Source: a virus. From it: a stretch of 64,000 bases of DNA. The notes under the pieces were generated by a model, which saw only the letters and a program-made list of their open reading frames with translations, did no database searches and was not told the origin of the DNA. Made by a program: the position numbers and the translations under genes. The stretch spans positions 7,926 to 71,925 of the IMG/VR virus record IMGVR_UViG_3300037515_000251. One strand, given 5' to 3'. Positions 689 to 42,436 of this stretch are shown in pieces; within the stretch, counting starts at the first letter, position 1, and each line of letters begins with the position of its first letter.

Positions 689-691
689 AGA

Positions 692-2431: not shown

Positions 2432-3216
2432 ACCGGCTTGATCTCCCCCGACCCCGGCACCGGCTTGATGGTGCCCACGTAGCCGACCCTGTTGCCCGCC
2501 GGCCCAACCTGCGGCGCCGCATTCATCGACACCTTGGCCCTCTGGCCGTCCTCGTGAACGCAGTAGAAGTCCGCGGCGAACGGCTCCCCGGCCTTGACCG
2601 CCTTGATCCAATCGTTGAATACCCGCTCGCGGTCGTTGGATTCGATTCTGATTTTCCAGCCGTGGTTGTTGACCTTCGGCGGGTATGCCCCGATGATCTC
2701 GCACAGCGGCTCGCTCACGCTGGTCCAGCCGCCATCCGGCCCGGCAACGAACGTGGCGATCTCGCTGTAGTCCTCGATGGTCCGCAGGCGCGCGCCGATC
2801 AGCAGCAGGTCGCCGTGCATCTGAGACTGCATTTCGAGTGACTTCTTGAGCAGGACCGGCCCCTGGGCGCAGAGTTTGCCGAAGTCCCAGAGCACCTTGA
2901 TGAACGCAAGCCCGCGTTGCTTGATGAGGTAGATCGACCCCATGAACGCCGCAATCCAAGCGATCGTCTCGGCAAACCCGATGAAGGTCTGCTTCTGGCG
3001 CTCCTGTACGAGTTCGTTTCTCAAGCGGTCCAAATCCTGCGGAGTAACCGACTGCGGGGCGGCGGTGATTGCGGCGAACAGTGCCCAGACTGCCGCCGTC
3101 GCCAGGTGCCGCTGTAGTCCATCTCCGTATTCAAGCAGCCATTCTCTTGTAACTCGCCGTACTCTCAGGCTCCAAAGCCAGATTCTCGCCAGCAGCCTCC
3201 ACGCCACTTTCTGCAT
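2419..3216 (-). CDS. membrane-anchored PAS-domain protein (lone opposite-strand gene, moron-like)
   Basis: two hydrophobic helices near N-terminus, C-terminal PAS-like fold (…NDWIKAVKAGEPFAADFYCVHEDGQRAKVSMNAAPQV…GYVGTIKPV); exact start uncertain. Confidence 0.4.
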   Translation of the reverse strand: MQKVAWRLLARIWLWSLRVRRVTREWLLEYGDGLQRHLATAAVWALFAAITAAPQSVTPQDLDRLRNELVQERQKQTFIGFAETIAWIAAFMGSIYLIKQRGLAFIKVLWDFGKLCAQGPVLLKKSLEMQSQMHGDLLLIGARLRTIEDYSEIATFVAGPDGGWTSVSEPLCEIIGAYPPKVNNHGWKIRIESNDRERVFNDWIKAVKAGEPFAADFYCVHEDGQRAKVSMNAAPQVGPAGNRVGYVGTIKPVPGSGEIKPVQSK

Positions 3217-3332
3217 TGGCTCGTCCTGTTCCTCATGTTTTCGGGAGCGGCCCCTCCCGCGTTGACGCCTATGATACCATTACTGTGAAAACCGCCTAAC
3301 AGGGGTTCCTCGCGGGCGACGAGGACACAACG

Positions 3333-4985: not shown

Positions 4986-4992
4986 GAGAACC

Positions 4993-6447: not shown

Positions 6448-6450
6448 TAG

Positions 6451-9400
6451 ATGCCGAACTCGCTGGAATTTATCCGAAGGGCCAAGCCGGAGCAACTACC
6501 GGTCGGCGCCGGGAATTCGCTCGATTTTATTCGCCAGGCGAAGCCGGGCAATTCCCTGGATTTTATTAAGTCGGCCAAAGCATCCGATCCCGTGTCAGTT
6601 TGGCACGGACAGCCCACGCCCGCAACCGCCGTCTCGACCACGCCCTCGCGCCGGGAACTCGGAGCCGAGCCGGAGGGTTTCTCAATCGGCCGCTTTGCCC
6701 GTGGTTTCTTTCGCCCGCCGGGGGATACACAGGAAGCCGAAAACGAGCGCATCAAACGCGCCGTCGTGGGCACGCCGGAGAAGCCGACATGGTTCACGCC
6801 GGAGACCCCGGAGCGCCCCACGACCCCGGCTGGCTACATGCGCCAAGCCTACCAGGAAGGAGGCGCCCTGGGTGCGGCTGGCGAAGTCGCCAAGATGGGC
6901 GTGCTCGGCCCGCTCTACGGCGCATTCAAGCAGCGCGACACGCCGCCGGTCCAGGCGGGCGAGCTATTCGAGCCGGGCACCGAGGCCCGCGGAATCGCTG
7001 AAGCCGTCTCGCATTTCGCCACGCCGACGAATGCCGCGATCATTGCCGGGGCCTCGACACTGACTGGCATACCCGCGATAGCCCTGAGCGCGTACTTCGC
7101 TACCGACATGGGCGTTGGAGCCTACCAGACTGCCGGGGAGATCGCCAAGGCCAAATCCGAGGGCCGGGAAGACGATGCGCGGGAACTCACCGGGCAGTTG
7201 ATGGTGATGATTCCGGCGGCGCTTGGCGCGGCGGGACATGCGGGCAAGAAAACCGTGGGGATCATCGGCGACCGGAGTGGACGAATCAGAAGCGGAGAGC
7301 CGACGACGCAGCCGCCGGAAATCACGTCGGTTGATGCGCCAGCGGTGCCGCCTTCGCCCATCGCCGCGCGTGCCGAGCCGTTGGCTGGAGAGATGACTGC
7401 TTCCCTCCAGGGTGGCCAGCGCACGCTGCCATTTGTAAGTGAAGCGGACCTTCGCCCTCCGCCGCCGCCAGCACCACCAGGAGTACCGCCGCAAGGTCCA
7501 GGCGGTCCCGCGGTTCCGCCCACGCCGCCGGGAGCGGGCCGTCTACCAGAATCCGAATCCTGGGTTCAGAAGCGCATTGATCTTGAAGACCGGCTCTATC
7601 CCGTCAAGGCGATGGAGAAGATGGCCCGTGACCCGCTGAGCATCGAGGAATCCGCCTACCACCGAATGCGGATGTACCCGGCCGTGTTCGCGCGCGCGCA
7701 AAGCCATCTCGAAACGCTCCGCAAGGGACTCAAGCCGATCCGCCAGACGTTCCGCGAGGATATCAAATCGTTCATCACCGACAAGAAGCCAGCCGATCTG
7801 GTGAGCGAGTTCGAACGCTACGCCACGAACGCCCATGAACTCGACGTGCAGCAGGTCTATCCCGAACGCCAGTTCTCGGGCGGACGCACCCGCGAGCAAA
7901 TCATCCAGGAACAACGCGATATTCAGCAGCGCCTTGGCCCGGACAAGATGGCTCGCCTCAATCAGGCGCAGCGGGCATACTCGGAGTTCGGCCACAGAAT
8001 GCTCGACGAGCTTGTGGACGCTGGCGCATTCAGCCGCGACGTGGCCGCCAGGCTCAAGCAGGCGTATCCGCGCTATGTTCCACTGGAGCGCGTGCTGGCG
8101 GAAGCGGAGGGCGTATTGAAGCACCCCGGAACCGGCGGCGGGAGATCCATGTCGGTTTCGACTCAGAACGTCGTCCGCAAACTCACCGAGCAGGGCAGCG
8201 AACTCGAAATCCAGCGAGCACTTGAAACCATGAGCCGTAAGGCGTTCGACGCATTCTCGCTAGCCGAGCGCAACCGGGCCTCACGGGCCGTCTACGATCT
8301 TGCCGGGAAGGAAGAGTTCGCCGGAACGGTAATCCGCCTGCGGCCGGAAGCCGATCCACCGCCGGGCATGGTGCGTTCGTCGGTGCTGATCGACGGCGTG
8401 CGGCACGATTACGCTGTACCACGGCAAGTCGGCGAAGCGATCCAGGGATTGACCAAAACCCAAGCGGACGTGGTGACGGAAATGGCAGGCAAGAGCGCCC
8501 AAGCCCTCCGCGCCGGTGCAACGACCTGGAGCCTGCCGTTCCTGGGTACGAACATCGCCCGCGATTACTACACGGCCTCGATGCGCTCGCCGGTCGGGTT
8601 CACGCCGCTCGACATGATCGCCGGGTTCTACCACGGCCTCAAGAAAGACGCCCTGTACCACGACTACCTGCGCTCGGGCGCCGCCATGTCGGGGTTCTTT
8701 GAGCAATTCAAGACGCCGCAGCGCGAAGCCCGCCATCTGGTCGAAAGCCAAGCGACCAGGAACATGAAGAAAATCCTGAACCCGTTCGAACTTATGTCCG
8801 AGATCGGCCAGGCTGGCGAGAATGCGGCCCGCATCGGTCTCTACCGGCGCGGCAAGCAGGCTGGACTATCCGAGATGGAAGCCGGTTGGCTCGGGCGCGA
8901 TACGACCGTGGACTTCGCCAAGTCCGGGCGGGTGATTCGCGTCCTGAACATCCTGACGCCGTTCATCAACGCCCGCATTCAGGGCAGCGGCAACATGCTG
9001 CGTACCTTCCGCGATAATCCAGGCGAGGCGAGTTTGACTTGGTGGGCATTGATCGGCGGGCCGTTGACGGCGCTCTACCTCTACAACACGCGCAATCACC
9101 CGGAAGCGTACCGGGACATGCAGCCGTACACCGAGGAAGCCTATTACCCGCTCATTACCGGAGACGAAAAAGACGAAGATGGCAGCTATCCTGGCTTCAA
9201 GTTCCCGATGGAAGAGTTCGGGCAACTCGGGGCGCGCAGTCTGCTGGCGGCCTTGCAGCATCTCGATGAGAACGACCCGGTGGCGCTCAATAAGCTGGCG
9301 AGCCGCATGGGCCTCAGCGGGCGCGAGCTTCAGCCGGGGGAAGGCAAGAAAGCGCCGAGCGCGGCCAAAGTTGCTTTCGAGACGGCGACTGGCCTGCTCC

Positions 9401-10194
9401 CGGTCGATGTCACCCCAGGCGGGGACGTTGGCCTGATGCCAGCCTTGCGCGGGACCGCCAGCGGCCTGCTACCGCCGATTGCCCGCGGAGCGCTCGAAGC
9501 GGGGACCGGAACGAGTTTCTTCACCGGACGCCCGATCGGCAAACTTCAGTCCATGCGCGATTTGCCGGAGGCCGAGAAGTACATCCGGGGCGAGACGCCG
9601 GAATGGCTGGTCAGCGTCGGCAAGTGGACCGACACATCCCCAGAACGGCTGAAGCACATCATCGAATCTCAGTTCGCCACGGTGGGGCGGCTGGCAACGC
9701 GCGGAGAAACGCCCACTGGACAGGTAGCCAAGCGGTTCAGCGGAATCCCCGGCGGGGCCGTCGAGAGCAAAGGCTTCCAGCGCACATCGGAATTGCGGGG
9801 CCAAGCCGCGATGGAGCGCATGGAAACCACCGCGCCGGCCGAACAGGCATTCAAGGAACTCAAGGCGATTCCGAAAGACCAGATGGCGGCGGCGTTCCGC
9901 GAGAAGATCGGGCAACTGCCGCGTGAGTCGCGGTTCGTCCTGCTCGATTTGATCGCCAAGGATGCTGGCGGCCTGACACGCGAGGAACAGAGCCTCAAGG
10001 CGCAGTTGATCGGAGTTCGGGCGAAGCGCCTGCTGGAGAAGATGCAGGAACTACCACAGGATCAGATTCAGGGGAACATCAACCGCTGGGCCAAGGGCGG
10101 CCTGCTCACCAAGGACACGCTCAGAATGATGCGCCAGATTCAAGCAGCGGAGGCTCAGGGGGTCGAGCCGAAGTTGCGTCAGCCGCGCCGGTAG
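6451..10194 (+). CDS. large (1247 aa) virion internal/DNA-ejection-like protein
   Basis: longest ORF in window; N-terminal triple repeat NSL(E/D)FI(R/K)xAKP; proline-rich linker; size and position typical of podovirus/siphovirus internal core or tape-measure-like proteins; no enzymatic motif confirmed. Confidence 0.5.
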   Translation: MPNSLEFIRRAKPEQLPVGAGNSLDFIRQAKPGNSLDFIKSAKASDPVSVWHGQPTPATAVSTTPSRRELGAEPEGFSIGRFARGFFRPPGDTQEAENERIKRAVVGTPEKPTWFTPETPERPTTPAGYMRQAYQEGGALGAAGEVAKMGVLGPLYGAFKQRDTPPVQAGELFEPGTEARGIAEAVSHFATPTNAAIIAGASTLTGIPAIALSAYFATDMGVGAYQTAGEIAKAKSEGREDDARELTGQLMVMIPAALGAAGHAGKKTVGIIGDRSGRIRSGEPTTQPPEITSVDAPAVPPSPIAARAEPLAGEMTASLQGGQRTLPFVSEADLRPPPPPAPPGVPPQGPGGPAVPPTPPGAGRLPESESWVQKRIDLEDRLYPVKAMEKMARDPLSIEESAYHRMRMYPAVFARAQSHLETLRKGLKPIRQTFREDIKSFITDKKPADLVSEFERYATNAHELDVQQVYPERQFSGGRTREQIIQEQRDIQQRLGPDKMARLNQAQRAYSEFGHRMLDELVDAGAFSRDVAARLKQAYPRYVPLERVLAEAEGVLKHPGTGGGRSMSVSTQNVVRKLTEQGSELEIQRALETMSRKAFDAFSLAERNRASRAVYDLAGKEEFAGTVIRLRPEADPPPGMVRSSVLIDGVRHDYAVPRQVGEAIQGLTKTQADVVTEMAGKSAQALRAGATTWSLPFLGTNIARDYYTASMRSPVGFTPLDMIAGFYHGLKKDALYHDYLRSGAAMSGFFEQFKTPQREARHLVESQATRNMKKILNPFELMSEIGQAGENAARIGLYRRGKQAGLSEMEAGWLGRDTTVDFAKSGRVIRVLNILTPFINARIQGSGNMLRTFRDNPGEASLTWWALIGGPLTALYLYNTRNHPEAYRDMQPYTEEAYYPLITGDEKDEDGSYPGFKFPMEEFGQLGARSLLAALQHLDENDPVALNKLASRMGLSGRELQPGEGKKAPSAAKVAFETATGLLPVDVTPGGDVGLMPALRGTASGLLPPIARGALEAGTGTSFFTGRPIGKLQSMRDLPEAEKYIRGETPEWLVSVGKWTDTSPERLKHIIESQFATVGRLATRGETPTGQVAKRFSGIPGGAVESKGFQRTSELRGQAAMERMETTAPAEQAFKELKAIPKDQMAAAFREKIGQLPRESRFVLLDLIAKDAGGLTREEQSLKAQLIGVRAKRLLEKMQELPQDQIQGNINRWAKGGLLTKDTLRMMRQIQAAEAQGVEPKLRQPRR
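6592..6606. repeat. genome-wide palindrome copy inside CDS
   Basis: within 5' region of 1247-aa gene. Confidence 0.85.
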
Positions 10195-11800: not shown

Positions 11801-12270
11801 CTATCGAAACAACTCCATCTTCGGCGGGATCGCCCGCCGTAAATCGCCCGCATTGTCCAGCTTCCAGAACAGCGCCCCGTCCCGCCGGCAACGCTCGGCG
11901 AAATCCTTCTGTTCCGGCCGCAACTTCTCGCCCGGCCTCTTCGTCTCGATCCAGCCGATCCGCGCATGGGAGCACGTCTCGATCTCGCCGGTCAAGAAAT
12001 TACGCACTGGCCGGTTGGCCGGAATCATCAGCAGCACGTCGGCGGTGCCCTTGGGGGCGCCCTGGCCCCAACGGGTGCGCTTCTTGTCGTCCCCGTCTTT
12101 CTCATCGTCCCCGCCGGGGAACTTAAACAGCCCACAGACGATGTTCGCCCGCCAGATTCCTTCCCATTCCAAGTAGTCGAGCACCGCTTTCTTGAAATCG
12201 CCCTCAAGAGCTTTCGGCGCCCGCCATGGACGGCTGCCCCAGCGGGGCTTGCGGTTGGGGTTAGCGGCCA
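11801..12270 (-). CDS. VRR-NUC domain nuclease (PD-(D/E)xK fold)
   Basis: GTADVLLMIPANRPV…ETKRPGEKLRPEQKDF…GALFWKLDNAGDL matches VRR-NUC pattern (G-x-PD…E-hyd-K…Q); start taken at MAANPNRKPRW just after HNH stop. Confidence 0.55.
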
Positions 12271-12636: not shown

Positions 12637-12651
12637 GTGTCAGTTTGACAC
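12637..12651. repeat. genome-wide palindrome copy (GTGTCAGTTTGACAC)
   Basis: 8 nt upstream of HNH ATG (minus strand). Confidence 0.9.
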
Positions 12652-13844
12652 TAGGTTTCGACGGCCGGCGCGTATTCCTGTTCGGTCATCCCCCAACTCG
12701 CGGCCAATGCCGCGCGCGCCGTGCGGTGTTGTGGATTCGCCCATAGAACGGTCGTCTTTCCGGTAGTGTGGCAAGTGACCGATAACAGGCCCCATCCCAC
12801 GTTGCCGCCAAGATCAAGGGTGTAGAGTTCCGCGAGATGCGCGGCATTCTGGTCGATCAACTTTAGGCGCTTCGAAGACAACAGCTTTCCCTTGCCGTAA
12901 CGCTCGATCATCACCCGCCGCACTTCCGCGTTCGGTTCGGCGAAGATGGCATCCTCGGTGATTGTTTCCGGCCTCTCGATCACGTCTTGCGGCACGCGAA
13001 CTCCGTGCCACGCCCAGATATTCCAGCCGTCGTTGAATTTCATTGCTGGCCCGGTCTCGCAATGCAGGCGGTTGATGCTGCGGTCATCAACCTCCGTATG
13101 GACTTCCGGCCGGGCGGACACAAAACACATATTCTCGAAGAAATAAACCCAGCCGCAAGAACGGCAGAGATCGGCCATGATGCAGAGCCTTGTGGACATC
13201 TCGGGTTCATAGCGGACGCCCAAGTGTTCGCAAAATTTGTAAAAGCACACCCAAAAGGAATCGTGCTGGCCCAAAAAATACGTGTCCCGAAGGCTGGCCC
13301 CAAGGCTGTCCCGAAGGCTGTCCCCAAGGTTGTCCCGAAGGTTGTCCCCAAGGCTGTCCAGAAGGCTGGCCCCAAGGCTGTCCCAAAGGCTGTCCCGAAG
13401 GCTGGCCCCAAGGCTGGCCCCAAGGCTGTCCCGAAGGCTGTCCCCAAGGCTGTCCAGAAGGCTGGCCCCAAGGCTGTCCAGAAGGCTGTCCCCAAGGCTG
13501 GCCCGAAGGCTGTCCCCAAGGCTGTCCCCAAGGCTGGCCCCAAGGCTGTCCCCAAGGCTGGCCCGAAGGCTGGCCCCAAGGCTGTCCCAAAGGCTGTCCC
13601 GAAGGCTGGCCCCTCGGATCGCCGCAATGCCAATCTGGCACGTCAGCGGAGAATCGCACCATACGATTACCGGTGGACCCTTTCCGATGGCGCGATAGGC
13701 CCGATTGATCGCGTCCCTGGCGAGAATTTGATCGCACGGGCCAGCCGCCATCCCAATTCGCAGCCACTCGTCGCGCCATTTGGGAATACTTGCTTCCTGC
13801 TCTGGCGTGAGGGCTTCAATCCGCAACGCTTTTAATGACGGCAT
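12651..13844 (-). CDS. tetrapeptide-repeat protein ((S-L-[GRWL]-[DA])n, ~30 copies) with unique N- and C-terminal domains
   Basis: 397-aa ORF; central ~356 nt is a 12-nt tandem DNA repeat (ggctgtccccaa-type) encoding SLGD/SLRA/SLWD units; overlapping plus-strand and other-frame ORFs are frame artefacts of the repeat. Confidence 0.55.
   Translation of the reverse strand: MPSLKALRIEALTPEQEASIPKWRDEWLRIGMAAGPCDQILARDAINRAYRAIGKGPPVIVWCDSPLTCQIGIAAIRGASLRDSLWDSLGASLRASLGDSLGASLGDSLGDSLRASLGDSLLDSLGASLLDSLGDSLRDSLGASLGASLRDSLWDSLGASLLDSLGDNLRDNLGDSLRDSLGASLRDTYFLGQHDSFWVCFYKFCEHLGVRYEPEMSTRLCIMADLCRSCGWVYFFENMCFVSARPEVHTEVDDRSINRLHCETGPAMKFNDGWNIWAWHGVRVPQDVIERPETITEDAIFAEPNAEVRRVMIERYGKGKLLSSKRLKLIDQNAAHLAELYTLDLGGNVGWGLLSVTCHTTGKTTVLWANPQHRTARAALAASWGMTEQEYAPAVET
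13265..13620. repeat. 12-nt tandem repeat array (~30 units) inside CDS 12651-13844
   Basis: ggctg(g/t)cccc(a/g)aa units repeated head-to-tail; period 12 = 4 codons. Confidence 0.8.
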
Positions 13845-19508: not shown

Positions 19509-20510
19509 CGGCTGAAACTCCTTTCATGTGATCGGCGGCATGTTTTTCGAACGTCCCAATCAACCTCGTCTCGAAACCTGGCTTGTCTTGCAGGTACATC
19601 GCTTCGAGCAGCGCGATCTTCCAGGCTGGCAGGTGAAGATCAACCCACTGCACAACACCGTTTCCGGGCGGCAATGCGCGTAAACGGCAGGCATTCACCA
19701 CCGAGATGATGACCCCGGCTTGCGGGCGCGGATCCAGCTTCGTGTCAGTTTGGCACCGATTGGGCCGGGAGAACGCCTCGGATGGCTGGCGCGATCTGGT
19801 AACCCCGCCATTCGGCCGACGCGGACGCCCTGGGACCCCGACCAGGGCCAGCACGTCGTCGGTCACATTCCCGCCGTCCCCGGAGCGCTCGTCGAGTAGC
19901 GCCGCGATCCGCTCCCGCAACTCCGGCGAATCAGCCTCGGTGAGCAGCCGCCGCTTCGACCCCGTGGTGATCCGTAGCGACAGCCCCAGGCTCCGCGCTT
20001 CGTCCGCCGCCCACTTGTCGATGGGGCGCTCCATTTCCGCGGAGTTCTGTTTTGGTAAGGGGGTAGGGGGATTATCTCTTTCTTTAGTATTTTCTTTAAG
20101 AGAAGAATCTATAAGGACGGGATCGGGGTTGACCGTCGCATGGGTGCGACTGTCACCGTCGCATGGGTGCGACTGTCGAGCGGAATCGACCGTCGCATGG
20201 GTGCGACTGTCGAACAGGATCGAGTAGCTGACTGGGAAGCCTCCGCCGTTCGGACTTTTGGCGATCAAGCCGCGCTCAATGAGTGAGTTTACTGCTCGGT
20301 GAAAGGTGGCGACGTTGATCTGCGACCACCCACAAATCGTGTCCCTGTCAACCGTGACGACTTGACGCTGGAACCCGATCGTGAGCCGGTAGATCGACAG
20401 GTAGACCTTCATCTCCGAGGACGATAAATCGCCCATGATCTGCTCGATGAAGTCGTGATTGAGTTGGCTGAAGTTGCCTGAAGGCGGCCGGTTCGGCCTG
20501 GATTTCATGG
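19405..20510 (-). CDS. replication-initiator-like protein (winged-helix N-terminus) with origin-like iterons inside its coding sequence
   Basis: probable start MKSRPNRPP at ~20510 (GAGG upstream); N-terminal MKVYLSIYRLTIGFQ…INVATFHRAVNSLIERGLI helix-turn-helix-like; ORF reads through palindromic motif at 19742 without a stop, so 3' boundary uncertain. Confidence 0.4.
19742..19756. repeat. genome-wide palindrome copy (GTGTCAGTTTGGCAC)
   Basis: inside/at 3' end of initiator-like ORF. Confidence 0.9.
20132..20211. repeat. three 23-bp direct repeats (accgtcgcatgggtgcgactgtc; iteron-like) next to an AT-rich patch (20075-20115): candidate origin of replication
   Basis: copies at 20132-20154, 20155-20177, 20189-20211; flanking ttatctctttctttagtattttctttaagagaagaatctataagg is strongly AT-rich for this genome. 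Confidence 0.6.
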
Positions 20511-30134: not shown

Positions 30135-30797
30135 ATGCACCCGCAGGTGGAAGCCCTGTTTCAAGCTGTGACCGAGGGCGAGCCGATGAATTCGATCCTG
30201 CGCTGGCTCGATCCGCCGGTTTCCCGGCCGACGCTGACGAGATTCAGGGACGACGTATTGGGGAACCGGATCAAGACACAGGGGTTGGGGCGGGCGGAAC
30301 CGGCCAAGGCCGCGGAGATGGTGCCCGCGCGGCAACTGTCGATGAGCGCGCCGCGGAGCCGGGAAGCGATGGTTGGCCCGCCCGAACGCGCATTCGATGT
30401 GGAAGTCGAGCCGCAGCGGTTGGCGGCTGTGCGGCGCCGGGTCGAATTGGTCGAGCGTTTCTACGAGGACAGGGCGCTGACGGTCCATGAGGAGCAGCTC
30501 GGCGCGGTGCGGCAGTTGACCGGGATGGCGGCGGACCCGGCTTGCGATCCAGTCCAGCGCGTGAAGTTGCTCGAACAGGCCACGAAGCTGCTCAACGGTG
30601 GGGCGTTGGAGCGGTCGCTAGGGGAAGCGGCCAGCTATGCCAACGTGCAGCGCAGCCAGTCGAAGCAAGGCGGCGGGCGGTCGCTGATCGAGATGAATTA
30701 CATGGTGATGCCAGCCGCGCAGGTGCCGATCAACCACACGCTGCCGATGCCAAGACCAGCACCGGCCCTGATTGAGTCAGAGCCGGTGAAAAAGTAG
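30135..30797 (+). CDS. hypothetical protein (plus-strand moron inside minus-strand block)
   Basis: ORF 30096-30797, probable start MHPQ at 30135; AT-rich divergent spacer 30037-30135; palindromic motif at its 3' end. Confidence 0.4.
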   Translation: MHPQVEALFQAVTEGEPMNSILRWLDPPVSRPTLTRFRDDVLGNRIKTQGLGRAEPAKAAEMVPARQLSMSAPRSREAMVGPPERAFDVEVEPQRLAAVRRRVELVERFYEDRALTVHEEQLGAVRQLTGMAADPACDPVQRVKLLEQATKLLNGGALERSLGEAASYANVQRSQSKQGGGRSLIEMNYMVMPAAQVPINHTLPMPRPAPALIESEPVKK

Positions 30798-32098: not shown

Positions 32099-33154
32099 TT
32101 AGGCGACTGCCTCAACCTCGATCGGCGCCGGTTCCGCAGGCCCGGCGGTTGCCTGCTTTGCTTTCCGCAGCTCGTCAAGTACCCAGTTCCGCTCAGCCTG
32201 AAGGTTGCGGTATTCCCTGAGTTCCCCGGCCCAGTCCCGATGACGGTCGCTGACACCCCAGCCGTACAACTGGCCGTGGTACTCATCGAGTTTCGGCGGT
32301 CGGCTCTGCCCGCCCGCGAATCGCCAGAGTTGGCGGACGTACCCGGCCAAGCTCAGATAGCGGTCGTTATTGGAGCGTGAGCGGCCCTGCTTCGCTTCGC
32401 CCATGGTCGTCACGCTGAACCCGGCGGCCCGCAGCATATTGTACAGTTTCGCTTCGGACTTCCCGCCCGTCGAAAGCCAGGCCCGCCAGATTCGGCCCAA
32501 CTGCCGGCGCGCCGGTTTCCCCTTGCGCCAAGCGGACCATGATTGCCGGTCGCTGTCGTCGAATGTCCCGCGTTCGCGCCGCGGCCAAAGCCGTTCGGGA
32601 AACTTCAGCGGGTCGTAAGTCCGCTCCCATTGCTTCTCGATGCGCTTTAGGTGAGCGGTCCAGGTCTTTTCGGCCGGGGTCATCTTGGCGATGACTTTCA
32701 CCTTGCGGCGGCTCTCGCCCCACTTGGCATTACCTACCAGCACGCCGCCCATGTTGCGCTCGAAATGGCGGCGATTGCCCCATCCGGCCTTGTGGACGTT
32801 GCCCCAGTTATAGCCCGCCGCGGCTTGAGTGAAGCGGTAGACCGCGTAACCCGGCCAGCGAACGCCTTGCCGGTAGCCCTTGACGACCAGCCTGGTAGCG
32901 GCTTCATTCTGTGGCATTGTGCCGCGCCAATTGCCCGGCGGCCCGTCGTCAGCGGCTTCGAACCCGATACTCGTGATGGTTAGCCCTTCCAGCGCGATTG
33001 ACGCGCGCCCGGAATCGACTACCCAGGGATGCTCCCCCGGCCTTGGGATACCCAGGACCGGCGGACAGCCGCGCCCGTTGCGCTTGAGCGCTTGGACGAA
33101 ACCGCGAAAGCCCGTTGGGGCTTCGCCTTGAATTGCGAGGGGATCATTCAGCAT
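32099..33154 (-). CDS. hypothetical protein
   Basis: 351-aa ORF, W/R-rich, no recognisable motif. Confidence 0.4.
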   Translation of the reverse strand: MLNDPLAIQGEAPTGFRGFVQALKRNGRGCPPVLGIPRPGEHPWVVDSGRASIALEGLTITSIGFEAADDGPPGNWRGTMPQNEAATRLVVKGYRQGVRWPGYAVYRFTQAAAGYNWGNVHKAGWGNRRHFERNMGGVLVGNAKWGESRRKVKVIAKMTPAEKTWTAHLKRIEKQWERTYDPLKFPERLWPRRERGTFDDSDRQSWSAWRKGKPARRQLGRIWRAWLSTGGKSEAKLYNMLRAAGFSVTTMGEAKQGRSRSNNDRYLSLAGYVRQLWRFAGGQSRPPKLDEYHGQLYGWGVSDRHRDWAGELREYRNLQAERNWVLDELRKAKQATAGPAEPAPIEVEAVA

Positions 33155-33737
33155 GGCCGGTCCCTCCGCTGTTCAGCGTGCCAAGCAGTTCAATCGCCCG
33201 GTTCAGTGACGATCCGGGGTTGCTGTCGTCCAACTCATCGCTGAGTGCAAGCAGACCCGCCACGATATCGCCGATGTTGGCTGGTAGCGGATCAGGCCCG
33301 CAGTTCAGCCGTTCGCAGAGAACGTCGATCTGCTTGGTTGAGGGGCAAAGCACACTCTCCCCGATGAAATGATCCCAAGCGGTAGACATCGCGCCAGGGC
33401 CGTAGCGCTCAACGTCGCGCTGAAGCATTCGCAGGCCGACCAGCACGGCCGCGAATTCCTGCTTGGTGAGGTTGAGCGGTCCGTGGGCGAGGTCTTCGGG
33501 GTCGGCTGGCTCGGCTTCGATGAAATACCGCATATCGCTCACGCGGGCGTAAGCGTGGGTGCCTTCGCAGATGGCGCGGTCAGGGCCTTCACTCGTAATG
33601 GGGAATTGCTTGCTCCATGCCGGGTAATTGAGCCGGAGCGCGTCTGCGGCGTTCTCGGCTGTCACGGTGTCGCGGGCGAGCTCGGTATGCTCGGCTCCGG
33701 GGCCTTCGGTGTACTCGATGACGTTGTAGGCTTTCAT
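33144..33737 (-). CDS. hypothetical protein
   Basis: 197-aa ORF overlapping next gene start. Confidence 0.4.
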   Translation of the reverse strand: MKAYNVIEYTEGPGAEHTELARDTVTAENAADALRLNYPAWSKQFPITSEGPDRAICEGTHAYARVSDMRYFIEAEPADPEDLAHGPLNLTKQEFAAVLVGLRMLQRDVERYGPGAMSTAWDHFIGESVLCPSTKQIDVLCERLNCGPDPLPANIGDIVAGLLALSDELDDSNPGSSLNRAIELLGTLNSGGTGHAE

Positions 33738-33834
33738 GGTCTGGTATCTCCCTTGCCGCGCTCAGCGTTACCCATCCTCACCACTTGGCGGTGGCGGCTT
33801 TGAGGACTGGCCCGGATTGTCCGGGCCGATTCAA

Positions 33835-35026: not shown

Positions 35027-35854
35027 GCTGCAACCTCCATGTCCGCCGGTTCCCCGGTCAGTCCGTCGATGATCCGCGTCGCGGCCCGATAGATCGCGCT
35101 CAGCGAGTCGCTGAGGGCTTTCGGGTCGCCAGCCATGTGGATGTAATCGGCGCTATTCGCCCCGCACTCCACGCCGGCCGCCGCGCAAACCGCCGCAGCC
35201 ACAGCCTGAGCCTCAGTTTCCTTTAGCGCCGCGGTCATCTCCCGGCGCCGCTCCAGCGGGTGTAATAGCTCATGGCCGAGCTCATGCGCCAGCACGTCAA
35301 ACTCGTAAGCAGGCTCAAGGCCCGGTTTGATGGTGATGCGCCCGCCGGCGGACGTTCCGAGTGTGCCCGAGACGTGCTGATAAACGATCTCGATTCCCTG
35401 AGCCACGGTCCACGCCTTGAGCCGTTCCAGCAGTTCGCCGGGTTCCCCTTGGGGCTTGGCGATCTGGGGTAGTGGTTCGCCTTCGGTTTGGGTCACGTCG
35501 AACACGTAGACGCCGCGAAAGAACGTCACCCGCTCCGGTTCGCCTTGCTCGGGTTCGCCCGTTTCCCCGTCCGATTCGCCCTTGACCTTGCAGAGCATCG
35601 GGGCGAGAATGAGAATACCGTGCTCGCCCTTGCGGACGTGGCGGCCAAGCTGCAACCAGGTCCGAAAACCCGCCACGTTCGTAGCGCCCGGACATTGCAT
35701 GGCAATCATCATGCAATTGCGCCACGAGTAGCGCCTGAAACGGCGCATCGTTTCGAGATAGGCCGTGAGCCGTTCAGACTTGCCGGCCGCAAGGTCCGCG
35801 CTCAGCTCCCGGAGAGCTTGCGCGGCACGTTCTTTGGCATCGGCGGGGGTCATC
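35023..35854 (-). CDS. ArdC-like antirestriction protein (N-terminal ssDNA-binding domain + C-terminal HExxH zinc metallopeptidase)
   Basis: N-terminal ERLTAYLETMRRFRRYSWRN…AGFRTW pattern; C-terminal LAHELGHELLH; start taken at MTPADAKERAAQ. Confidence 0.55.
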
Positions 35855-36367
35855 GGGTCACCTTCCGGCTTCCGGTGACGGCGCACGAACCGAGGCGGTT
35901 CCCGTTGATATCGTGGATACTCCAATTGTCGGAAGGCGTCAGATGATTCAAACGATCTTCGTCCAGAGTTGCGAGTTGCGTTGCAACGTTGCGCAATACT
36001 CTGGCGATATCCTCGCCGGTTCGCATCGCATCGATTTCGATCTCAAGTGTGAATTTCATGGTCGGTATCTCCAGGGGAAACGTCCCCGCAAGGGGAACGG
36101 ACGGCGCCCGCCCGCTCCCTATGCGCGAAGGTCTCAGTTTTGGGCGCCAGCCAAAGCCACAACCGCCCGTGCCAATCGGCGAACCTCCGCCGCGCGATCG
36201 TCCACCACGGCAACCAGTGGCTTCAGGTCTGTTTCGCCCGCGTGCCAAGCATCGCGCCAACGCATGACGGCAGAGCACAACGCGGATTGTGCGCGATCAA
36301 GATCAAACCGCGAACAGGCTAACTCGAATTTTGTATCTGATTGATTCAGCATGGTTTACTCAGTTTC

Positions 36368-36382
36368 GTGTCAGTTTGACAC
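36368..36382. repeat. genome-wide palindrome copy
   Basis: edge of control region. Confidence 0.9.
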
Positions 36383-36879
36383 GGGGTTAAATCAGCTTGT
36401 CAGTGGAACGATGCGGCCTAACTCTCCGCTCCGTCCCTACCATTGCCAGCGAGAACGCCAGCACGATAACTGCGGTCAGCGGGTCATCCGTATTCAGGAT
36501 CGCCACCACCGCCGCCACGATTGAGAGGGGGATTAGGGTCGTCATCTGGAAACCTCGTCGCTGGTCCAGAGGTCTGTCCCAGCCTCGTAGAGCCGTACCC
36601 TGATTCGCTCCAGTAAATTCCATGCTCTGTGCTTGGCCCCACGTTGCAGGCGGTCCACGATGTAGAGCGCCTGAGCCGTAGCCGATTCACGATTGATGAA
36701 TTGTGGTTGAGCTTTCATGGCATCTCCTTTGGTTTCAACGGCTTTGGTAGCATAGAGCCTCGGCTCATCGGATCGTCTCGGCGAAACGGCCGGCCCAGCG
36801 TTCGTCCCGCCTGCCAGCCTCTTACCACCGATTGATCCGCCACCCATACCGCTACATCCCGGCGAGCCATTCGAACCGC

Positions 36880-37700
36880 TATGCTCGCCAGTCATAATGC
36901 AATACTAGCATTGCATTTCGGGGCTAGTCAAGCGGATTATGATAATTATTGGCGATTCGGCGAAGATTTTACAATTAGTACACTCGTGTTGACAGTAGAG
37001 TGTCAGAAAAATCTGACAGGTGTCAGAAAAATCTGACAGTTTGGGGATTACGACTGTAAGGATTTATGACAGTCGGAGGTCTTTCCCTTGGGGTGTGAGA
37101 CACTCGTTAGACACTTTATGGCGCAAAGTGTCTCATGTGAGACAGTCTATTGCTCGGCCCTCCGAATCAGCACTATCGGCGCCGCCGGCAGCAGTGATGG
37201 CAGGCCCGCCGCAGCGTCAGGACCGCACCAGGTCGAATCGCTGGCAGGGTTGATAATGTCGTATAACATGTATTGTGTAAACTTCTGAAATCGAAACTAA
37301 CTACTGTGCTGTCATACAGATACAGCGATATGCCGGAATTATGGAACACCCAGGAAAATAGGCAACCACAACATGTTGTGGTCAGTGCTACTGGTGGAGT
37401 GCTGCTGGTCGAGCGGTCGAGCGCGTGGCCGGAGCTGGTGGAAGTGGACGAGTCGCGGCCCGTGCGGTGGGTGTGGTGGCCAGGCTCGGTCGGTGGCGCG
37501 GCTGGCAGTGGTGGACCTCGTGCGCGACCCCCATGCCCCCTTTTCACAGGAATGGGTTCCCATCTGCCCGTGGTATCACGATTCTCCGTCCACATACATC
37601 CCGATTCCTGCGACCATGGTACACGAGTTGTATTTTCAACGACTTACGGGAGGCAAAAACATGGTGCGATTATGGTACGGGTTTATGCGATAATGGTAGA
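36880..37700. promoter_or_regulatory. low-GC divergent control region between minus-strand early block and plus-strand regulator block; contains TTGACA box and several operator-like palindromes
   Basis: AATGCAAT-N6-ATTGCATT (36886-36907); TTGACA (36999-37004); tandem TGTCAGA-AAAA-TCTGACA at 37011-37028 and 37031-37048; GTGAGACAC … GTGTCTCA … TGAGACAG inverted set (37095-37145); no convincing ORF across 36900-37690. Confidence 0.6.
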
Positions 37701-38113
37701 AGTATGGATGAATTTAGCCAAGAATCGTTGACGCCGTTCCAGGAGATCGCGATGTGGAGACATAAGGGGAAGGATGGGCGGCTAATGAGCCGGGAGAGGC
37801 GGTCGGCGGTGATGCGGGAGTTGGGGAAGCTGAGGCGGGGGCGTGGAGGGCGGGAGGCGACGGTGTTGCACGCGCCTGGGCCGAGAGGGGGGTGTCGGTG
37901 TGCGGAGTGCCGGCGGGGAGGTGGGTCGGCGGACAGGGGGAAGGGGAAAGAGCATGCCCCTGGGAGCGCCGGGCAGGCGCAGAAGCCGGTTTCGGTGGAG
38001 TTCGAGCGGGCGGCGGAGGGGGAATGGGAGTGAAGCCGCTGGCGCGGTACATCGCGAGGGCGTTTCGGCCGGGTTGACAGGGACGGGCCGGTTATGCAAC
38101 ACTGCTGTTGACA

Positions 38114-38784
38114 TGGCGGATGGTGCCAGACTGACACGGCGGGACGGGCGGATCGTGGAGATGCGGGCCGGGGGGATGACCTTGGCGGCGATTGGGCTTG
38201 AGTTTGGGGTAACGCGGCAGCGGGTGCGGCAGATAATCGAGAAGGCGTGCAGGGGCCGGCTGTGCGTGCGGTGCCGGCTGCCGGATGGGCGGCTGGACGG
38301 GGACGGGCTGTGCGGGAAGTGCGTGCGGCTGCTGGAGATCGTGGCGGACGATTCGCTGGCTTGCGAGGAAGCAGGCCAGAAGGCGGGTGTTTCTGGTGCG
38401 GTTGTTCAGCAGACTCGCCGGAAGTTCGGGATTCGGCATCAGTACCGGAAGCATTTCAGGGACGGTGTGCCGGAGGATGTATTCGATCCGCGGGCGAGCG
38501 CGTTGGCGCTGACACGCAAATACGGAGTTGGCAAGGGCGTTATTCAACACTTGCGAAAGAAGGCTGGGCTGGCTGGCCTACAGCGGAAGAAGCTGTTCCC
38601 ACAAAAAAGCTGGACGACTGACGAAGATCGTGTGCTTGTGGAGATGCGCCGGGCTGGCAAGACCTGGGCGGAGATTGGGGAGAGCCTGGGGCGGTCGCCT
38701 CAGGCGTGCCGGACAAGGCAGATCAACCAGCGGCGGAAGGGGATCGAAATGGGCGCGTGGCCGGAGGTCGCGGCGCCGTGCTGA
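38114..38784 (+). CDS. multi-HTH transcriptional regulator (sigma-r4-like HTH + SANT/Myb-like C-terminal repeat)
   Basis: LAAIGLEFGVTRQRVRQI HTH; C-terminal WTTDEDRVLVEMRRAGKTWAEIGESLGRSPQACRTRQ Myb-like; variant of the genome-wide palindrome (GTGCCAGACTGACAC) overlaps codons 4-8. Confidence 0.45.
38123..38137. repeat. variant palindrome copy (GTGCCAGACTGACAC)
   Basis: overlaps start of regulator gene 38114. Confidence 0.7.
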
Positions 38785-38848
38785 TCGAGGCGAACCCGGA
38801 GTACGTCAGGCTGATCCGCAAGCGCCTGGCGCAGGAGGTTTTGTTCGG

Positions 38849-39613
38849 ATGAAAGAGCACCCCATGATTTGTGCCGACGCCGAAATGCGGGCCTTCCTGG
38901 ATGGCCGAAAGACTCAGCACCGGCAGATCATCTCCGCCAAGAACTCCACGGTGAACGGGGAAATCCCGAATACCAGCCGCTCGGCGAAGGAGTTCACGGA
39001 CGGCTGGCGCGATCTCGATTTTGAGGGAACCGGCGGACTACGCCCTTACGCCGATGGACACCAGAGCGAATGCCCGTGCGGATCGTACTTGCATGTGCCG
39101 TTGGCCGGTTACGGCGTGGATGGCGATCATCGAGTCTTCAGGGTACGCTCGCGGGTTGAACCCGGCGACTTGATCTGGTGCCGGGAGAACGGATGGGAAC
39201 GCCCATTTAGGACCGCCACGGACATGCGGGAAGGTGCCGACACATGGGAGAAATTCTACTACGATGCGGACGGTTTAACTGAATCTGATCGGGACGATTT
39301 CAAGCGCTGGCGATTCAAGCGACGCCACTCCACCCAGATGCCCAAGTGGGCTTCGCGCTGCCGTCTCCGCGTGCTCAGCGTGCGCCCAGAACGCGTCCAG
39401 GACATCAGCGAAGAGGATGCACGGGCGGAAGGTATCAGGATGTTCGACAACTCCGGCATGTATGCCGGTAGAAGGGGGCCGGGACGCAAGGTAACGCCCT
39501 GGTGGACGGCCCGCGAAGCATTCACCGATCTATGGGACACCCGCCACGGCAGTGGCGCATGGCTGCGTAACGACTGGGTTTGGCTCTACGAGTTCGAGAA
39601 GGTGGAACCATGA
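38849..39613 (+). CDS. hypothetical protein (possible ASCH/PUA-like N-terminus)
   Basis: start MKEHPMICADAEMRAFLDGRKTQ; weak resemblance only. Confidence 0.3.
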   Translation: MKEHPMICADAEMRAFLDGRKTQHRQIISAKNSTVNGEIPNTSRSAKEFTDGWRDLDFEGTGGLRPYADGHQSECPCGSYLHVPLAGYGVDGDHRVFRVRSRVEPGDLIWCRENGWERPFRTATDMREGADTWEKFYYDADGLTESDRDDFKRWRFKRRHSTQMPKWASRCRLRVLSVRPERVQDISEEDARAEGIRMFDNSGMYAGRRGPGRKVTPWWTAREAFTDLWDTRHGSGAWLRNDWVWLYEFEKVEP

Positions 39614-41475: not shown

Positions 41476-41850
41476 ATGCACAAAACCAAGGAAGTATCTA
41501 AACTGACCGGCCTCAGCGTCCGGCAACTCCAATACTGGGATGAGCACGGCTACGTCGTCCCCAAAATCGAGCGGCACCGCAGGCTCTACGACGACCGGCA
41601 GTTGCGCGGGCTGATGGTCATCGCCGCCCTGAAGCGCCGGGGAGTCAGTCGCAACGACGTGCTCGCCCAGGTCAACGAGGGGTTCTGGAGATTCATTGGG
41701 TACATTCAACTGGAAGCAGGTGGCTGGCTGCTGTGGGACCACTATGGCGGCGCTGAGCCGCTACGGTGGTGCCCCACCGAGAAGTTGCTGGCCGATGTCG
41801 CGGCAAAAGCCGAAGGCCCCGTGACCATCGTGGAGTTCAAGGCCGCATGA
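41476..41850 (+). CDS. MerR-family HTH regulator
   Basis: MHKTKEVSKLTGLSVRQLQYWDEHGYVVP N-terminal MerR-type HTH. Confidence 0.55.
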   Translation: MHKTKEVSKLTGLSVRQLQYWDEHGYVVPKIERHRRLYDDRQLRGLMVIAALKRRGVSRNDVLAQVNEGFWRFIGYIQLEAGGWLLWDHYGGAEPLRWCPTEKLLADVAAKAEGPVTIVEFKAA

Positions 41851-42132: not shown

Positions 42133-42205
42133 GGGGCCACAACACGGACGTTGACAGGATGAATCGCCATGAGCAATACTGGTGTTGCATGACCAAGGAC
42201 TGCCG

Positions 42206-42436
42206 ATGAACATTACCGAAGCGCTTCGCCAGGCCCGCCGGTCGGTTCCCCGGAGTCTCGCGGGCGTGGCCGAAAAGATGGGCGCGACCACCCAGGCCGC
42301 CAGCCGCATCGAGCGGGACGCCGGGCGGGCGAACTTGCTGACGCTGGCGAAGTACGTCAAGGCGCTCGGCGGGAAGCTGATTGTCGAGATCAGGATGCTG
42401 GGCAAGGACGAGCGGACGTTCCGGGGGGATGTATGA
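42206..42436 (+). CDS. XRE-family HTH regulator
   Basis: MNITEALRQARRSVPRSLAGVAEKMGATTQAASRIERDAG HTH_3-like; motif ~75 nt upstream. Confidence 0.45.
   Translation: MNITEALRQARRSVPRSLAGVAEKMGATTQAASRIERDAGRANLLTLAKYVKALGGKLIVEIRMLGKDERTFRGDV

What the first reader, a model, noticed from the sequence alone, without database searches (positions are those of the whole stretch)
36880..37700. Low-GC divergent switch region with multiple distinct operator-like palindromes sharing a TGTCA half-site with the genome-wide motif
An ~800-bp stretch of clearly lower GC lies between the leftward early block and the rightward regulator block and has no convincing ORF. It carries these elements:
- A perfect inverted repeat AATGCAAT-N6-ATTGCATT at 36886-36907.
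- A consensus TTGACA box at 36999-37004.
- Two tandem copies of the palindrome TGTCAGA-AAAA-TCTGACA at 37011-37028 and 37031-37048.
- A GAGACAC / GTGTCTC inverted set at 37095-37145.
The TGTCAGA/TCTGACA arms contain the same TGTCA/TGACA core as the dispersed GTGTCA-N3-TGACAC sites, but with 8 rather than 3 bp between cores. This suggests related recognition helices or one protein with two binding modes. The overall arrangement looks like a lysis/lysogeny or early/late genetic switch.
Basis: seen in the sequence. Interest (0 to 1): 0.7.

Follow-up and report, generated by a model that had tools for sequence, protein, structure and literature searches.

The report
Phage early divergent promoter-operator region
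This is the non-coding control region between the two divergently transcribed gene blocks of an uncultured 72-kb phage; a related phage keeps its palindromes, so they are probably real regulator binding sites, but nothing marks it as a lysis/lysogeny switch.

Summary
The elements exist, but three of the four lie 10 nt below the stated coordinates. They are AATGCAAT-N6-ATTGCATT (36896-36917), TTGACA (36989-36994) and an exact tandem 20-mer GTGTCAGAAAAATCTGACAG x2 (37000-39). The window is a metagenomic phage. The region 36719-37703 is the only point where its leftward and rightward gene blocks diverge, and no ORF inside it looks coding.

One syntenic relative (L059; genes about 50-75% aa identical, flanking genes mosaic) keeps:
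- the arms of the first palindrome, with a diverged spacer;
- a 33-nt block holding TTGACA and a leftward CTGTCA-18-TAAAAT promoter-like pair;
- both tandem palindromes (18/18 and 17/18);

The GAGACAC set is not conserved.

No integrase or CI/Cro-like gene was detected. Iterons lie inside the Rep gene elsewhere. L059 keeps the tandem sites but uses a different dispersed motif, so one protein reading both is unlikely.

Verdict: a real early promoter/operator region, an ordinary kind of element in a new lineage. Binder and promoters are only inferred.

The parts
36542..36718 (-). First leftward gene (58 aa, strong RBS AAAGGAGAT). Alternative start at 36895 (117 aa) or 36847 (JGI call).
   Evidence: Codon score is borderline at -0.08. 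No Pfam/PHROG hit.
36896..36917 (.). Palindrome A, AATGCAAT-N6-ATTGCATT. It overlaps -10-like hexamers on both strands.
   Evidence: In L059 the arms ATGCAAT/ATTGCAT are identical and the spacer differs at 3 of 6 positions. It resembles promoter-proximal dyads at 42171, 38093 and 30052.
36902..36931 (-). Candidate leftward promoter: TTGACT (36931-36926), 18-nt spacer, TAGTAT (36907-36902), with TG upstream. The ATG at 36895 lies 6 nt after the -10.
   Evidence: Consensus scan. The L059 counterpart is weaker, TTGCGC-18-AATAGT at 7/12. Inferred only.
36964..36996 (.). Conserved block B, AGATTTTACAATTAGTACACTCGTGTTGACAGT. It contains the TTGACA box (36989-36994).
   Evidence: 29 of 33 positions are identical in L059.
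36966..36995 (-). Leftward promoter-like pair: CTGTCA (36995-36990), 18-nt spacer, TAAAAT (36971-36966). Predicted start about 36959.
   Evidence: It is the only -35/-10 pair with identical hexamers and spacing in both phages, 9/12 in each. Function is inferred.
36979..36991 (+). Candidate rightward -10 (TACACT) plus CGTGTTG. No -35 at 17-18 nt.
   Evidence: The same -10/discriminator motif, A(A/C/T)ACT-NN-TGTTG, lies at 38099, 42176, 30055, L056 1527 and L059 2672. It reads TGGTACACT in L059. Inferred.
37000..37019 (.). Tandem operator-like palindrome O1 (TGTCAGA-AAAA-TCTGACA at 37001-37018).
   Evidence: It is 18/18 identical in L059.
37020..37039 (.). Tandem operator-like palindrome O2 (37021-37038).
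   Evidence: It is 17/18 identical in L059, with start-to-start spacing of 19 there and 20 here.
37095..37146 (.). GAGACAC repeats and a 9-bp hairpin, AGACACTTT-N7-AAAGTGTCT (37109-37133).
   Evidence: Not conserved in L059, so function is doubtful.
37255..37285 (.). Conserved blocks AATGTCGTATAA (37255-37266) and ATTGTGTAAACTTC (37272-37285).
   Evidence: 12/12 and 13/14 positions identical in L059. Unexplained.
37361..37382 (.). GGCAACCACAACATGTTGTGGT, an 18-nt perfect palindrome. The outer ACCAC/GTGGT arms and the GGCA prefix are conserved.
   Evidence: On the - strand it scores as terminator-like in the window only.
37526..37600 (.). Block F, the most conserved stretch of the region (core 37552-37579, ATGGGTTCCCATCTGCCCGTGGTATCAC).
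   Evidence: 88% identity over 76 nt and 28/28 in the core. No Rfam hit. Folding of 37250-37610 is no better than shuffles. No compensatory pairs. ORFs across it score as non-coding. Not found in three public collections.
37609..37699 (+). Three TGCGAnnATGGTA copies (37609, 37665, 37686). The last reads TGCGATAAT, an extended -10-like element, 9 nt before the ATG at 37704.
   Evidence: The same -10-to-ATG distance (8-9 nt) occurs at 38098-38103/38113 and 42175-42180/42189. Inferred proximal rightward promoter.
37704..38033 (+). First rightward gene (109 aa, unknown).
   Evidence: No family hit.
38113..38784 (+). 223-aa regulator with an N-terminal sigma-70 region-4.2-like HTH and a C-terminal Myb-like repeat. 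Candidate reader of TGACA half-sites.
   Evidence: Pfam Sigma70_r4 at 2.9e-10 and Myb at 3e-6. PDB 1ku3/1ku7 and c-Myb matches. 43% identity to RpoD region 4.2 over 46 aa.

Best explanation
The stretch 36719-37703 is the early transcription-control region of a phage with no detected lysogeny genes.

It lies between the leftward early block (small genes, ArdC, recombination and replication genes) and the rightward block (regulators, then packaging and structural genes).

Palindrome A and the two tandem TGTCAGA-N4-TCTGACA palindromes are most likely operators for dimeric helix-turn-helix regulators.

They bracket a conserved 33-nt block. That block carries a leftward sigma-70-type promoter-like pair (CTGTCA-18-TAAAAT). 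It overlaps an oppositely oriented -10-like element (TACACT-CGTGTTG).

Possible effects of a bound regulator:
- At O1/O2 it would lie just upstream of the leftward -35, with centres at about -50 and -70.
- For a rightward transcript starting near 36991, O1/O2 would lie at about +10 to +48.
- At palindrome A it would cover a second leftward -10, or block the leftward transcript at about +42 to +63.

The first rightward gene probably has its own proximal extended -10 promoter (TGCGATAAT, 37686-37694) giving a nearly leaderless mRNA.

Status of each step:
- Shown: the elements exist, the region is non-coding, and selected blocks are conserved.
- Inferred: which promoters fire, which protein binds, and the sign of regulation.
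For: Position and coding status:
- It is the only divergence point of the two gene blocks.
- No ORF in it looks coding.

Conservation in L059, the only relative that covers this region:
- L059 was identified through its ArdC homologue (74% identical). Its shared proteins are about 50-73% identical.
- The genes next to the region are not homologous between the two phages.
- Even so, these survive: the palindrome arms with a diverged spacer, block B at 29/33, and O1/O2 at 18/18 and 17/18.
- An 8-bp insertion between block B and O1 shows the palindromes are a separate module.
- CTGTCA-18-TAAAAT is the only promoter-like pair identical in both phages.

Other support:
- The -10/discriminator motif recurs at four other intergenic or gene-start sites in the window and in L056.
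- Early-type anti-defence genes flank the region in both phages.
- Tandem TGTCAG-N6-CTGACA pairs lie just upstream of regulator genes in more than 200 unrelated loci. That is the position expected of autoregulatory operators.
- TGACA half-site density is the highest of the window here.
Against: - No transcription or binding data exist.
- Only one relative covers the region, so conservation rests on a pairwise alignment.
- The perfect TTGACA has no acceptable -10 at 16-19 nt on the + strand in either phage.
- The 8-bp insertion in L059 changes the helical phase of O1/O2 relative to the leftward promoter. That argues against a phase-dependent activator role.
- In other genomes such tandem sites sit 2-30 nt from the regulator's start codon. 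Here the nearest genes are about 280 and 665 nt away.
- No candidate binder is shown to be shared by both phages.
- The one shared candidate, the 220-aa protein at 30135-30797, gave no family hit or fold match.
- About 650 nt of the region (37040-37690), including the best-conserved block, is not explained by this model.
Confidence: 0.6

Rival explanations
1. It is a lambda-like immunity (lysis/lysogeny) switch. A repressor and an anti-repressor encoded on either side compete for the tandem operators.
For: - Divergent layout with multiple palindromes next to overlapping, oppositely oriented promoter-like elements.
- Small genes of unknown function on both sides.
- The leaderless-type geometry at 36895 recalls lambda cI transcribed from PRM (own knowledge).
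Against: - No integrase, excisionase or partition gene in the precomputed Pfam hits for the stretches covered (window about 218-20,800 and 28,849-69,900).
- The flanking 58-aa, 72-aa and 109-aa proteins have no HTH hit, and are not conserved in L059 although the operators are.
- The first rightward gene of L059 is an Acb2/Tad1-like anti-defence gene.
Confidence: 0.08
2. The operators are read by a host regulator, not a phage one, so that the phage couples early transcription to host state.
For: - The palindromes are nearly invariant between two phages whose neighbouring genes differ.
- The L059 palindrome TGTCAGATATTTCTGACA is identical to one of two tandem palindromes that precede a chromosomal HipB-HipA-like gene pair in a Longimicrobium MAG.
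- Many bacterial chromosomes carry such tandem sites.
Against: - The host is unknown.
- Chromosomal sites have mostly G+C-rich centres, unlike AAAAAT here.
- The half-site is used by several protein families, so sequence identity to one locus may be coincidence.
Confidence: 0.15
3. The right two-thirds (about 37250-37600) encodes a non-coding RNA or a long cis-acting leader. Block F would be an RNA element, for example for antitermination or processing. The palindromes would control that transcript.
For: - Blocks at 37255-37285, 37361-37382 and 37526-37600 are conserved more strongly than the aligned coding DNA (88% against 65-76%).
- No coding signal.
- A -10-like TATAAC (TATAAT in L059) lies at 37262.
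Against: - No Rfam match at E up to 1.
- Folding energy is no better than shuffles on either strand (z +0.58 and +0.39).
- No compensatory pair in the two-sequence alignment.
- No -35 element for the TATAAC.
Confidence: 0.25
4. It is the replication origin: an AT-rich unwinding region plus repeats acting as iterons.
For: - The lowest GC of the neighbourhood and the minimum of cumulative GC skew lie at about 36750-36900.
- It contains direct and inverted repeats.
Against: - Three 23-34-nt iterons lie inside the RepO-like gene at 20132-20222. L059 has two 25-nt repeats inside its homologue, as in lambda.
- The skew switch coincides with the switch of transcription direction.
- The GAGACAC repeats are not conserved.
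- There are only two copies of the palindrome.
Confidence: 0.07

Closest known systems
Lambdoid immunity regions (OR/OL with PR/PRM; own knowledge)
   Same: A non-coding region between divergent transcription units. It holds several dyad-symmetric sites next to closely spaced, oppositely oriented promoters.
   Different: No CI/Cro-type genes flank it and no integration module was detected. There are two identical sites, not three graded ones. Most of the 1-kb region is something else.
Cluster A mycobacteriophage repressor with operator plus dispersed stoperators (PMC9283540)
   Same: A site at the early promoter region shares sequence with many sites spread through intergenic regions of the genome.
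   Different: Stoperators are asymmetric, oriented with transcription, and identical in type to the operator. Here both site types are dyads. The dispersed one occurs in both orientations. The spacing differs (3 against 8 bp between cores). L059 uncouples the two.
Cluster O mycobacteriophage 17-bp dyad repeats, TGTTCGG-NNN-CCGAACA (PMC4351075)
   Same: This applies to the dispersed motif only. Arms of 6-8 bp around a 3-bp centre, more than 20 copies in a genome of about 70 kb, either orientation, a phage not obviously temperate, and function unknown.
   Different: Different sequence and an unrelated phage. It says nothing about the tandem palindromes.
Tandem TGTCAG-N6-CTGACA palindromes upstream of small HTH, ArsR-type and HipB-like genes, mostly in Actinomycetota; Cmr site TGTCAGCGTGCTGACA (PMC5499769)
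   Same: The same half-sites, an 18-bp palindrome, and two copies in tandem 0-10 bp apart.
   Different: Those sites abut the regulator's own start codon and mostly have G+C-rich centres. Here the centre is AAAAAT and no gene abuts the sites. Several protein families are involved, so the site does not name the binder.
Sigma-70 region 4.2 bound to the -35 element (PDB 1ku7)
   Same: The neighbouring 223-aa protein carries a region-4.2-like HTH. Its recognition helix VTRQRVRQI compares with VTRERIRQI in RpoD. The half-site TGACA is the core of TTGACA.
   Different: The protein has no other sigma regions and carries a Myb-like repeat. Binding to any site here is untested. Its homologues co-occur with the dispersed 15-mer, not with the tandem sites.

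Membership tests
Lambda-type lysis/lysogeny immunity switch | Repressor and anti-repressor (CI/Cro-type HTH) genes flank the operators divergently. | tested here: not met
   The flanking 58-aa, 72-aa and 109-aa products have no Pfam, PHROG or NCBIfam match. They are not conserved in L059.
Lambda-type lysis/lysogeny immunity switch | An integration or plasmid-maintenance module lies elsewhere in the genome. | tested here: not met
   No integrase, Xis or ParAB family appears in the precomputed Pfam hits for window about 218-20,800 and 28,849-69,900. The stretch 20.8-28.8 kb was judged only from the annotation of its L059 homologues. About 2 kb at the other contig end was not seen.
Lambda-type lysis/lysogeny immunity switch | Operators overlap two opposed promoters, so that occupancy chooses between them. 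| tested here: inconclusive
   Overlapping opposed promoter-like elements lie in block B. O1/O2 lie beside them rather than over them. No start sites are known.
Cluster A stoperator system | Asymmetric 13-14-bp sites oriented with transcription, of the same type at the early promoter and at dispersed positions. | tested here: not met
   Both site types are dyads. The dispersed sites occur in both orientations within each gene block. The core spacing is 3 against 8 bp.
Autoregulatory tandem TGTCAG-N6-CTGACA operators | Two 18-bp palindromes with these half-sites, 0-10 bp apart. | tested here: met
   37001-37018 and 37021-37038, 2 bp apart.
Autoregulatory tandem TGTCAG-N6-CTGACA operators | The sites lie directly upstream (about 2-30 nt) of the regulator's own start codon. 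| tested here: not met
   The nearest gene starts are 36718 and 37704. In the other loci the gap is mostly 2-30 nt.
Sigma-70-type promoter | -35 and -10 hexamers at 16-19 nt, and a mapped start site. | tested here: inconclusive
   Five promoter-like sites on the - strand against 1.0 expected. One pair is conserved in L059. No start-site data exist.
Phage replication origin (iterons, AT-rich region, initiator) | At least three initiator-binding repeats next to or inside the initiator gene. | tested here: not met
   Iterons lie inside the RepO-like gene at 20132-20222. The repeats in this region are not conserved.
Known RNA families (Rfam 15) | A match to a covariance model. | tested here: not met
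   No match at E up to 1 in 35500-39000. None at gathering score in L059.
Invertible promoter switch (fimS/hin type) | Flanking inverted repeats and a nearby site-specific recombinase. | tested here: not met
   L059 has a perfect 26-bp inverted repeat around its region. The window has none longer than 17 nt at 76%. No recombinase family was detected.

The most novel reading that the evidence does not exclude
The free-standing sigma-70 region-4.2 mimic fused to a Myb repeat (38113-38784) reads -35-like TGACA half-sites. These would be the tandem palindromes beside the early promoters and the 21 hairpin-palindromes that mostly follow stop codons. The phage would then run a '-35 mimicry' regulon that combines early-promoter control with stoperator-like roadblocks. 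The 76-nt ultraconserved block F would be a further, undescribed cis element of this control cassette.
Probability: 0.1. Interest if true: 0.7.

Novelty: new member of a known kind. Interest (0 to 1): 0.35.

Why it matters
It gives a first annotated control region for an uncultured phage lineage. Its closest cultured relatives share only about 25-27% terminase identity.

It supplies three things that can be tested directly:
- Defined DNA probes: 36890-37045 and 37520-37605.
- A short list of candidate binders: the gene products of 38113-38784, 42206-42436, 41476-41850 and 30135-30797.
- A comparison (L059) that already separates conserved from dispensable elements.

The side observation may be of wider use. 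Tandem TGTCAG-N6-CTGACA sites accompany an unnamed family of about 70-aa HTH proteins in hundreds of actinobacterial loci. As a phenomenon, though, a divergent early promoter/operator region is expected in a phage.

Tried and rejected
- DNA search of the region against 50,697 phage records found no match.
- Single-protein searches of IMG/VR with three neighbouring proteins found no relatives.
- The exact 18-mer in IMG/VR gave 11 loci in about 5 unrelated groups. None shares proteins with the window. Only L002/L006 carry tandem copies.
- The exact 15-mer in IMG/VR gave 39 single, chance-like hits.
- The block F core gave nothing in the metagenome, viral or genome collections.
- All contigs carrying the exact 254-aa protein are 100% identical in this region, so they are useless for comparison.
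- The regulator has only two homologues, on contigs under 2.3 kb with a different upstream context.
- The 220-aa protein has only four homologues, none reaching the region.
- Its AlphaFold model (pLDDT 67; N-terminal three-helix unit plus a helical bundle) has no significant PDB fold match. It stays an unassigned candidate.
- Coding readings of block F were rejected. One frame shows two synonymous changes and an ATG/GTG start. However, the similarity is limited to about 25 codons, the tails are unrelated, and the codon score is -0.26.
- Sigma-54, ECF, DnaA-box and IHF readings of block F were checked by eye and rejected, because the key positions are not conserved.
- The TTGACA box was rejected as a rightward -35. 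There is no usable -10 at 16-19 nt in either phage, and the distance to O1 changes by 8 bp.

Full report
**What the window is.** The window matches a 71.8-kb JGI metagenome contig at 100% identity, and the same phage was assembled from several other samples. It encodes a large terminase, a tape-measure-like protein, an LPD38 polyvalent protein, RecT, an SbcC-like ATPase, a RepO-like initiator, ArdC, an RNA ligase and two tRNAs. The closest cultured phages share only about 25-27% terminase identity. Genes run on the + strand at 68-10194 and 37704-64000, and mainly on the - strand at 10218-36718. The stretch 36719-37703 is therefore the single divergence point of the genome.

**Checking the observation.**
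- All four elements exist, but three are reported 10 nt too high:
  - AATGCAAT-N6-ATTGCATT lies at 36896-36917.
  - TTGACA lies at 36989-36994.
  - The two palindromes lie at 37001-37018 and 37021-37038, inside an exact 20-nt tandem duplication.
- The GAGACAC set is where stated. It also contains a 9-bp hairpin at 37109-37133.
- Low GC (0.47-0.51) covers only about 36750-37350.
- No ORF in the region looks coding on the phage's own codon usage. Scores are -0.14 to -0.32 per codon, against +0.19 for genes and -0.30 for off-frames.
- The tandem palindrome is far beyond chance (3 found against 0.03 expected). TGACA/TGTCA density is the highest of the window here.
- Palindrome A and the TTGACA box are not statistically unusual on their own.

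**Comparative evidence.** Only one relative covers the region. This is L059, the first 16.7 kb of a 53-kb Logan contig, found through its ArdC homologue (74% identical).
- It is syntenic over about 17 kb. Shared proteins are about 50-73% identical (ArdC, RecT, a metallo-beta-lactamase fold protein, the SbcC-like ATPase; the Rep protein only 35%) and aligned DNA is 65-76% identical.
- The genes directly flanking its divergence point are not homologous to those of the window.
- The alignment of the two control regions shows sharply bounded conserved blocks:
  - ATGCAAT/ATTGCAT arms with a spacer differing at 3 of 6 positions.
  - A 33-nt block (36964-36996), identical at 29/33 positions, that includes the TTGACA box.
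  - Both tandem palindromes (18/18 and 17/18), separated from that block by an 8-bp insertion in L059.
  - AATGTCGTATAA and ATTGTGTAAACTTC (37255-37285).
  - GGCAACCAC...GTGGT (37361-37382).
  - A 76-nt block (37526-37600) at 88% identity, with a 28/28 core.
- The GAGACAC set and the G-rich stretch 37380-37520 are not conserved.
- Conserved arms with a variable centre are what an operator would show.

**Promoters (inferred).**
- The consensus scan finds five promoter-like sites, all on the - strand, against 1.0 expected.
- Only CTGTCA-18-TAAAAT (-35 at 36995-36990, -10 at 36971-36966) has identical hexamers and spacing in L059.
- TTGACT-18-TAGTAT, whose -10 lies inside palindrome A, has only a weak L059 counterpart.
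- The perfect TTGACA has no usable + strand -10 in either phage.
- Block B does contain TACACT-CGTGTTG. The same -10/discriminator motif follows TTGACA-N18 at 38074 and 42151 in the window and at L056 1527. There an ATG follows 8-9 nt after the -10, which suggests nearly leaderless mRNAs.
- The first rightward gene shows the same geometry behind TGCGATAAT (37686-37694).
- Block B thus looks like two overlapping, opposed promoters with O1/O2 on one side and palindrome A on the other. The sign and target of regulation remain open.

**Who binds.**
- The neighbouring 223-aa protein has a sigma-70 region-4.2-like HTH and a Myb-like repeat. It is 43% identical to RpoD region 4.2, which I supplied from memory, and the recognition helix is nearly the same.
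- TGACA is the core of the -35 hexamer that region 4.2 reads (own knowledge; PDB 1ku7).
- However, its two homologues sit on contigs where, in L056/L057, the dispersed 15-mer flanks the gene.
- L059 keeps O1/O2, yet no homologue from its contig appeared in the regulator search, and it has no 15-mer in 16.7 kb. It carries CTGGCCAGACTGGCCAG several times instead.
- The two site types therefore behave as separate systems. The regulator fits the dispersed motif better than the tandem sites.

**The same tandem pattern elsewhere.**
- A scan for TGTCAG-N6-CTGACA twice within 10 bp found over 120 metagenome loci, 92 genome loci (mostly Actinomycetota) and 3 viral loci. My arithmetic gives a chance expectation of about 0.02 for the genome collection.
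- The commonest neighbour is an unnamed 68-77-aa protein with a C-terminal HTH (GWSWEQIADALGVTRQSVHRKY) that starts 2-3 nt after the sites.
- ArsR-type genes and a HipB/HipA pair also occur.
- A profile of the small family picks the 223-aa regulator as the best hit in the window, weakly (E = 4.7e-4).
- Because several families are found next to this half-site, and the CRP/FNR-family regulator Cmr binds it (PMC5499769), it does not identify the binder.
- The one regulator-like protein shared with L059 (30135-30797; opposite orientation to its neighbours; 59.5% identical) has an N-terminal three-helix unit. It has no family or fold match.

**Alternatives.**
- *Lysogeny switch:* no integrase, Xis, ParAB or CI/Cro-type gene was detected. 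The early genes on both sides are of the anti-defence type (ArdC; Acb2/Tad1-like in L059).
- *Replication origin:* iterons lie inside the RepO-like gene in both phages.
- *RNA element:* there is no Rfam hit, no excess folding stability and no covariation. With two sequences this cannot be excluded, and block F remains unexplained.

**Verdict.** This is a real and partly conserved early promoter/operator region. The 'switch' label is too specific, and the proposed link to the dispersed motif through one protein is disfavoured. It is a new member of a familiar kind of element, with one truly unexplained conserved block.

Noticed in passing
window, 21 sites (e.g. 10200, 12637, 24001, 25062, 34733, 36368, 42118, 59948): The dispersed motif GTGTCA-GTT/AAC-TGACAC often extends to CCG...CGG and contains a TTGACA. 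It usually lies 3-30 nt after a stop codon and occurs in both orientations. L059 uses CTGGCCA-GAC-TGGCCAG instead: the same 3-nt centre with different arms. This resembles the Cluster O 17-bp repeats (PMC4351075).
   Followed up: partly
window 38113-38784: A chimeric regulator with a sigma-70 region-4.2-like HTH, several further HTH-like segments and a Myb-like repeat. Only two homologues turned up among 5.8 billion proteins.
   Followed up: partly
loci L063-L274 (metagenome and genome collections): Hundreds of loci, mostly Actinomycetota, carry two TGTCAG-N6-CTGACA palindromes directly upstream of an unnamed 68-77-aa HTH protein. It has no NCBIfam model.
   Followed up: partly
L059 1821-1846 and 2764-2789: A perfect 26-bp inverted repeat brackets the control region of L059. 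It includes the RBS and first three codons of both divergent first genes. A second 29-nt inverted repeat (86%) lies inside. The window has no counterpart.
   Followed up: no
window 33751-33823: A non-coding stretch upstream of the gene 33144-33737 is about 90% identical to L059, higher than the coding DNA. It contains hairpin-forming segments.
   Followed up: no
window 20132-20222: Three direct repeats, ACCGTCGCATGGGTGCGACTGTC, lie inside the RepO-like gene and are probably origin iterons. L059 has two 25-nt repeats in its homologue.
   Followed up: partly
window 38074-38115, 42151-42191, 37686-37706: Promoter-like elements have their -10 only 8-9 nt upstream of an ATG. This suggests leaderless or nearly leaderless mRNAs.
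   Followed up: partly
window 42206-42436: A 76-aa XRE-type HTH gene sits behind a 15-mer and a TTGACA-18-AATACT promoter. It is 72% identical to a gene next to the regulator homologue in L056.
   Followed up: partly
window 13283-13613: A 12-nt unit repeated 27.6 times inside the gene 12651-13844 encodes SLGD/SLRA-type four-residue repeats.
   Followed up: no
L002 and L006 (about 12005-12046 and 2345-2405): Unrelated viral contigs of 44% GC carry two and a half tandem copies of TGTCAGAAAAA(T/C)CTGACA. They share no proteins with the window.
   Followed up: partly
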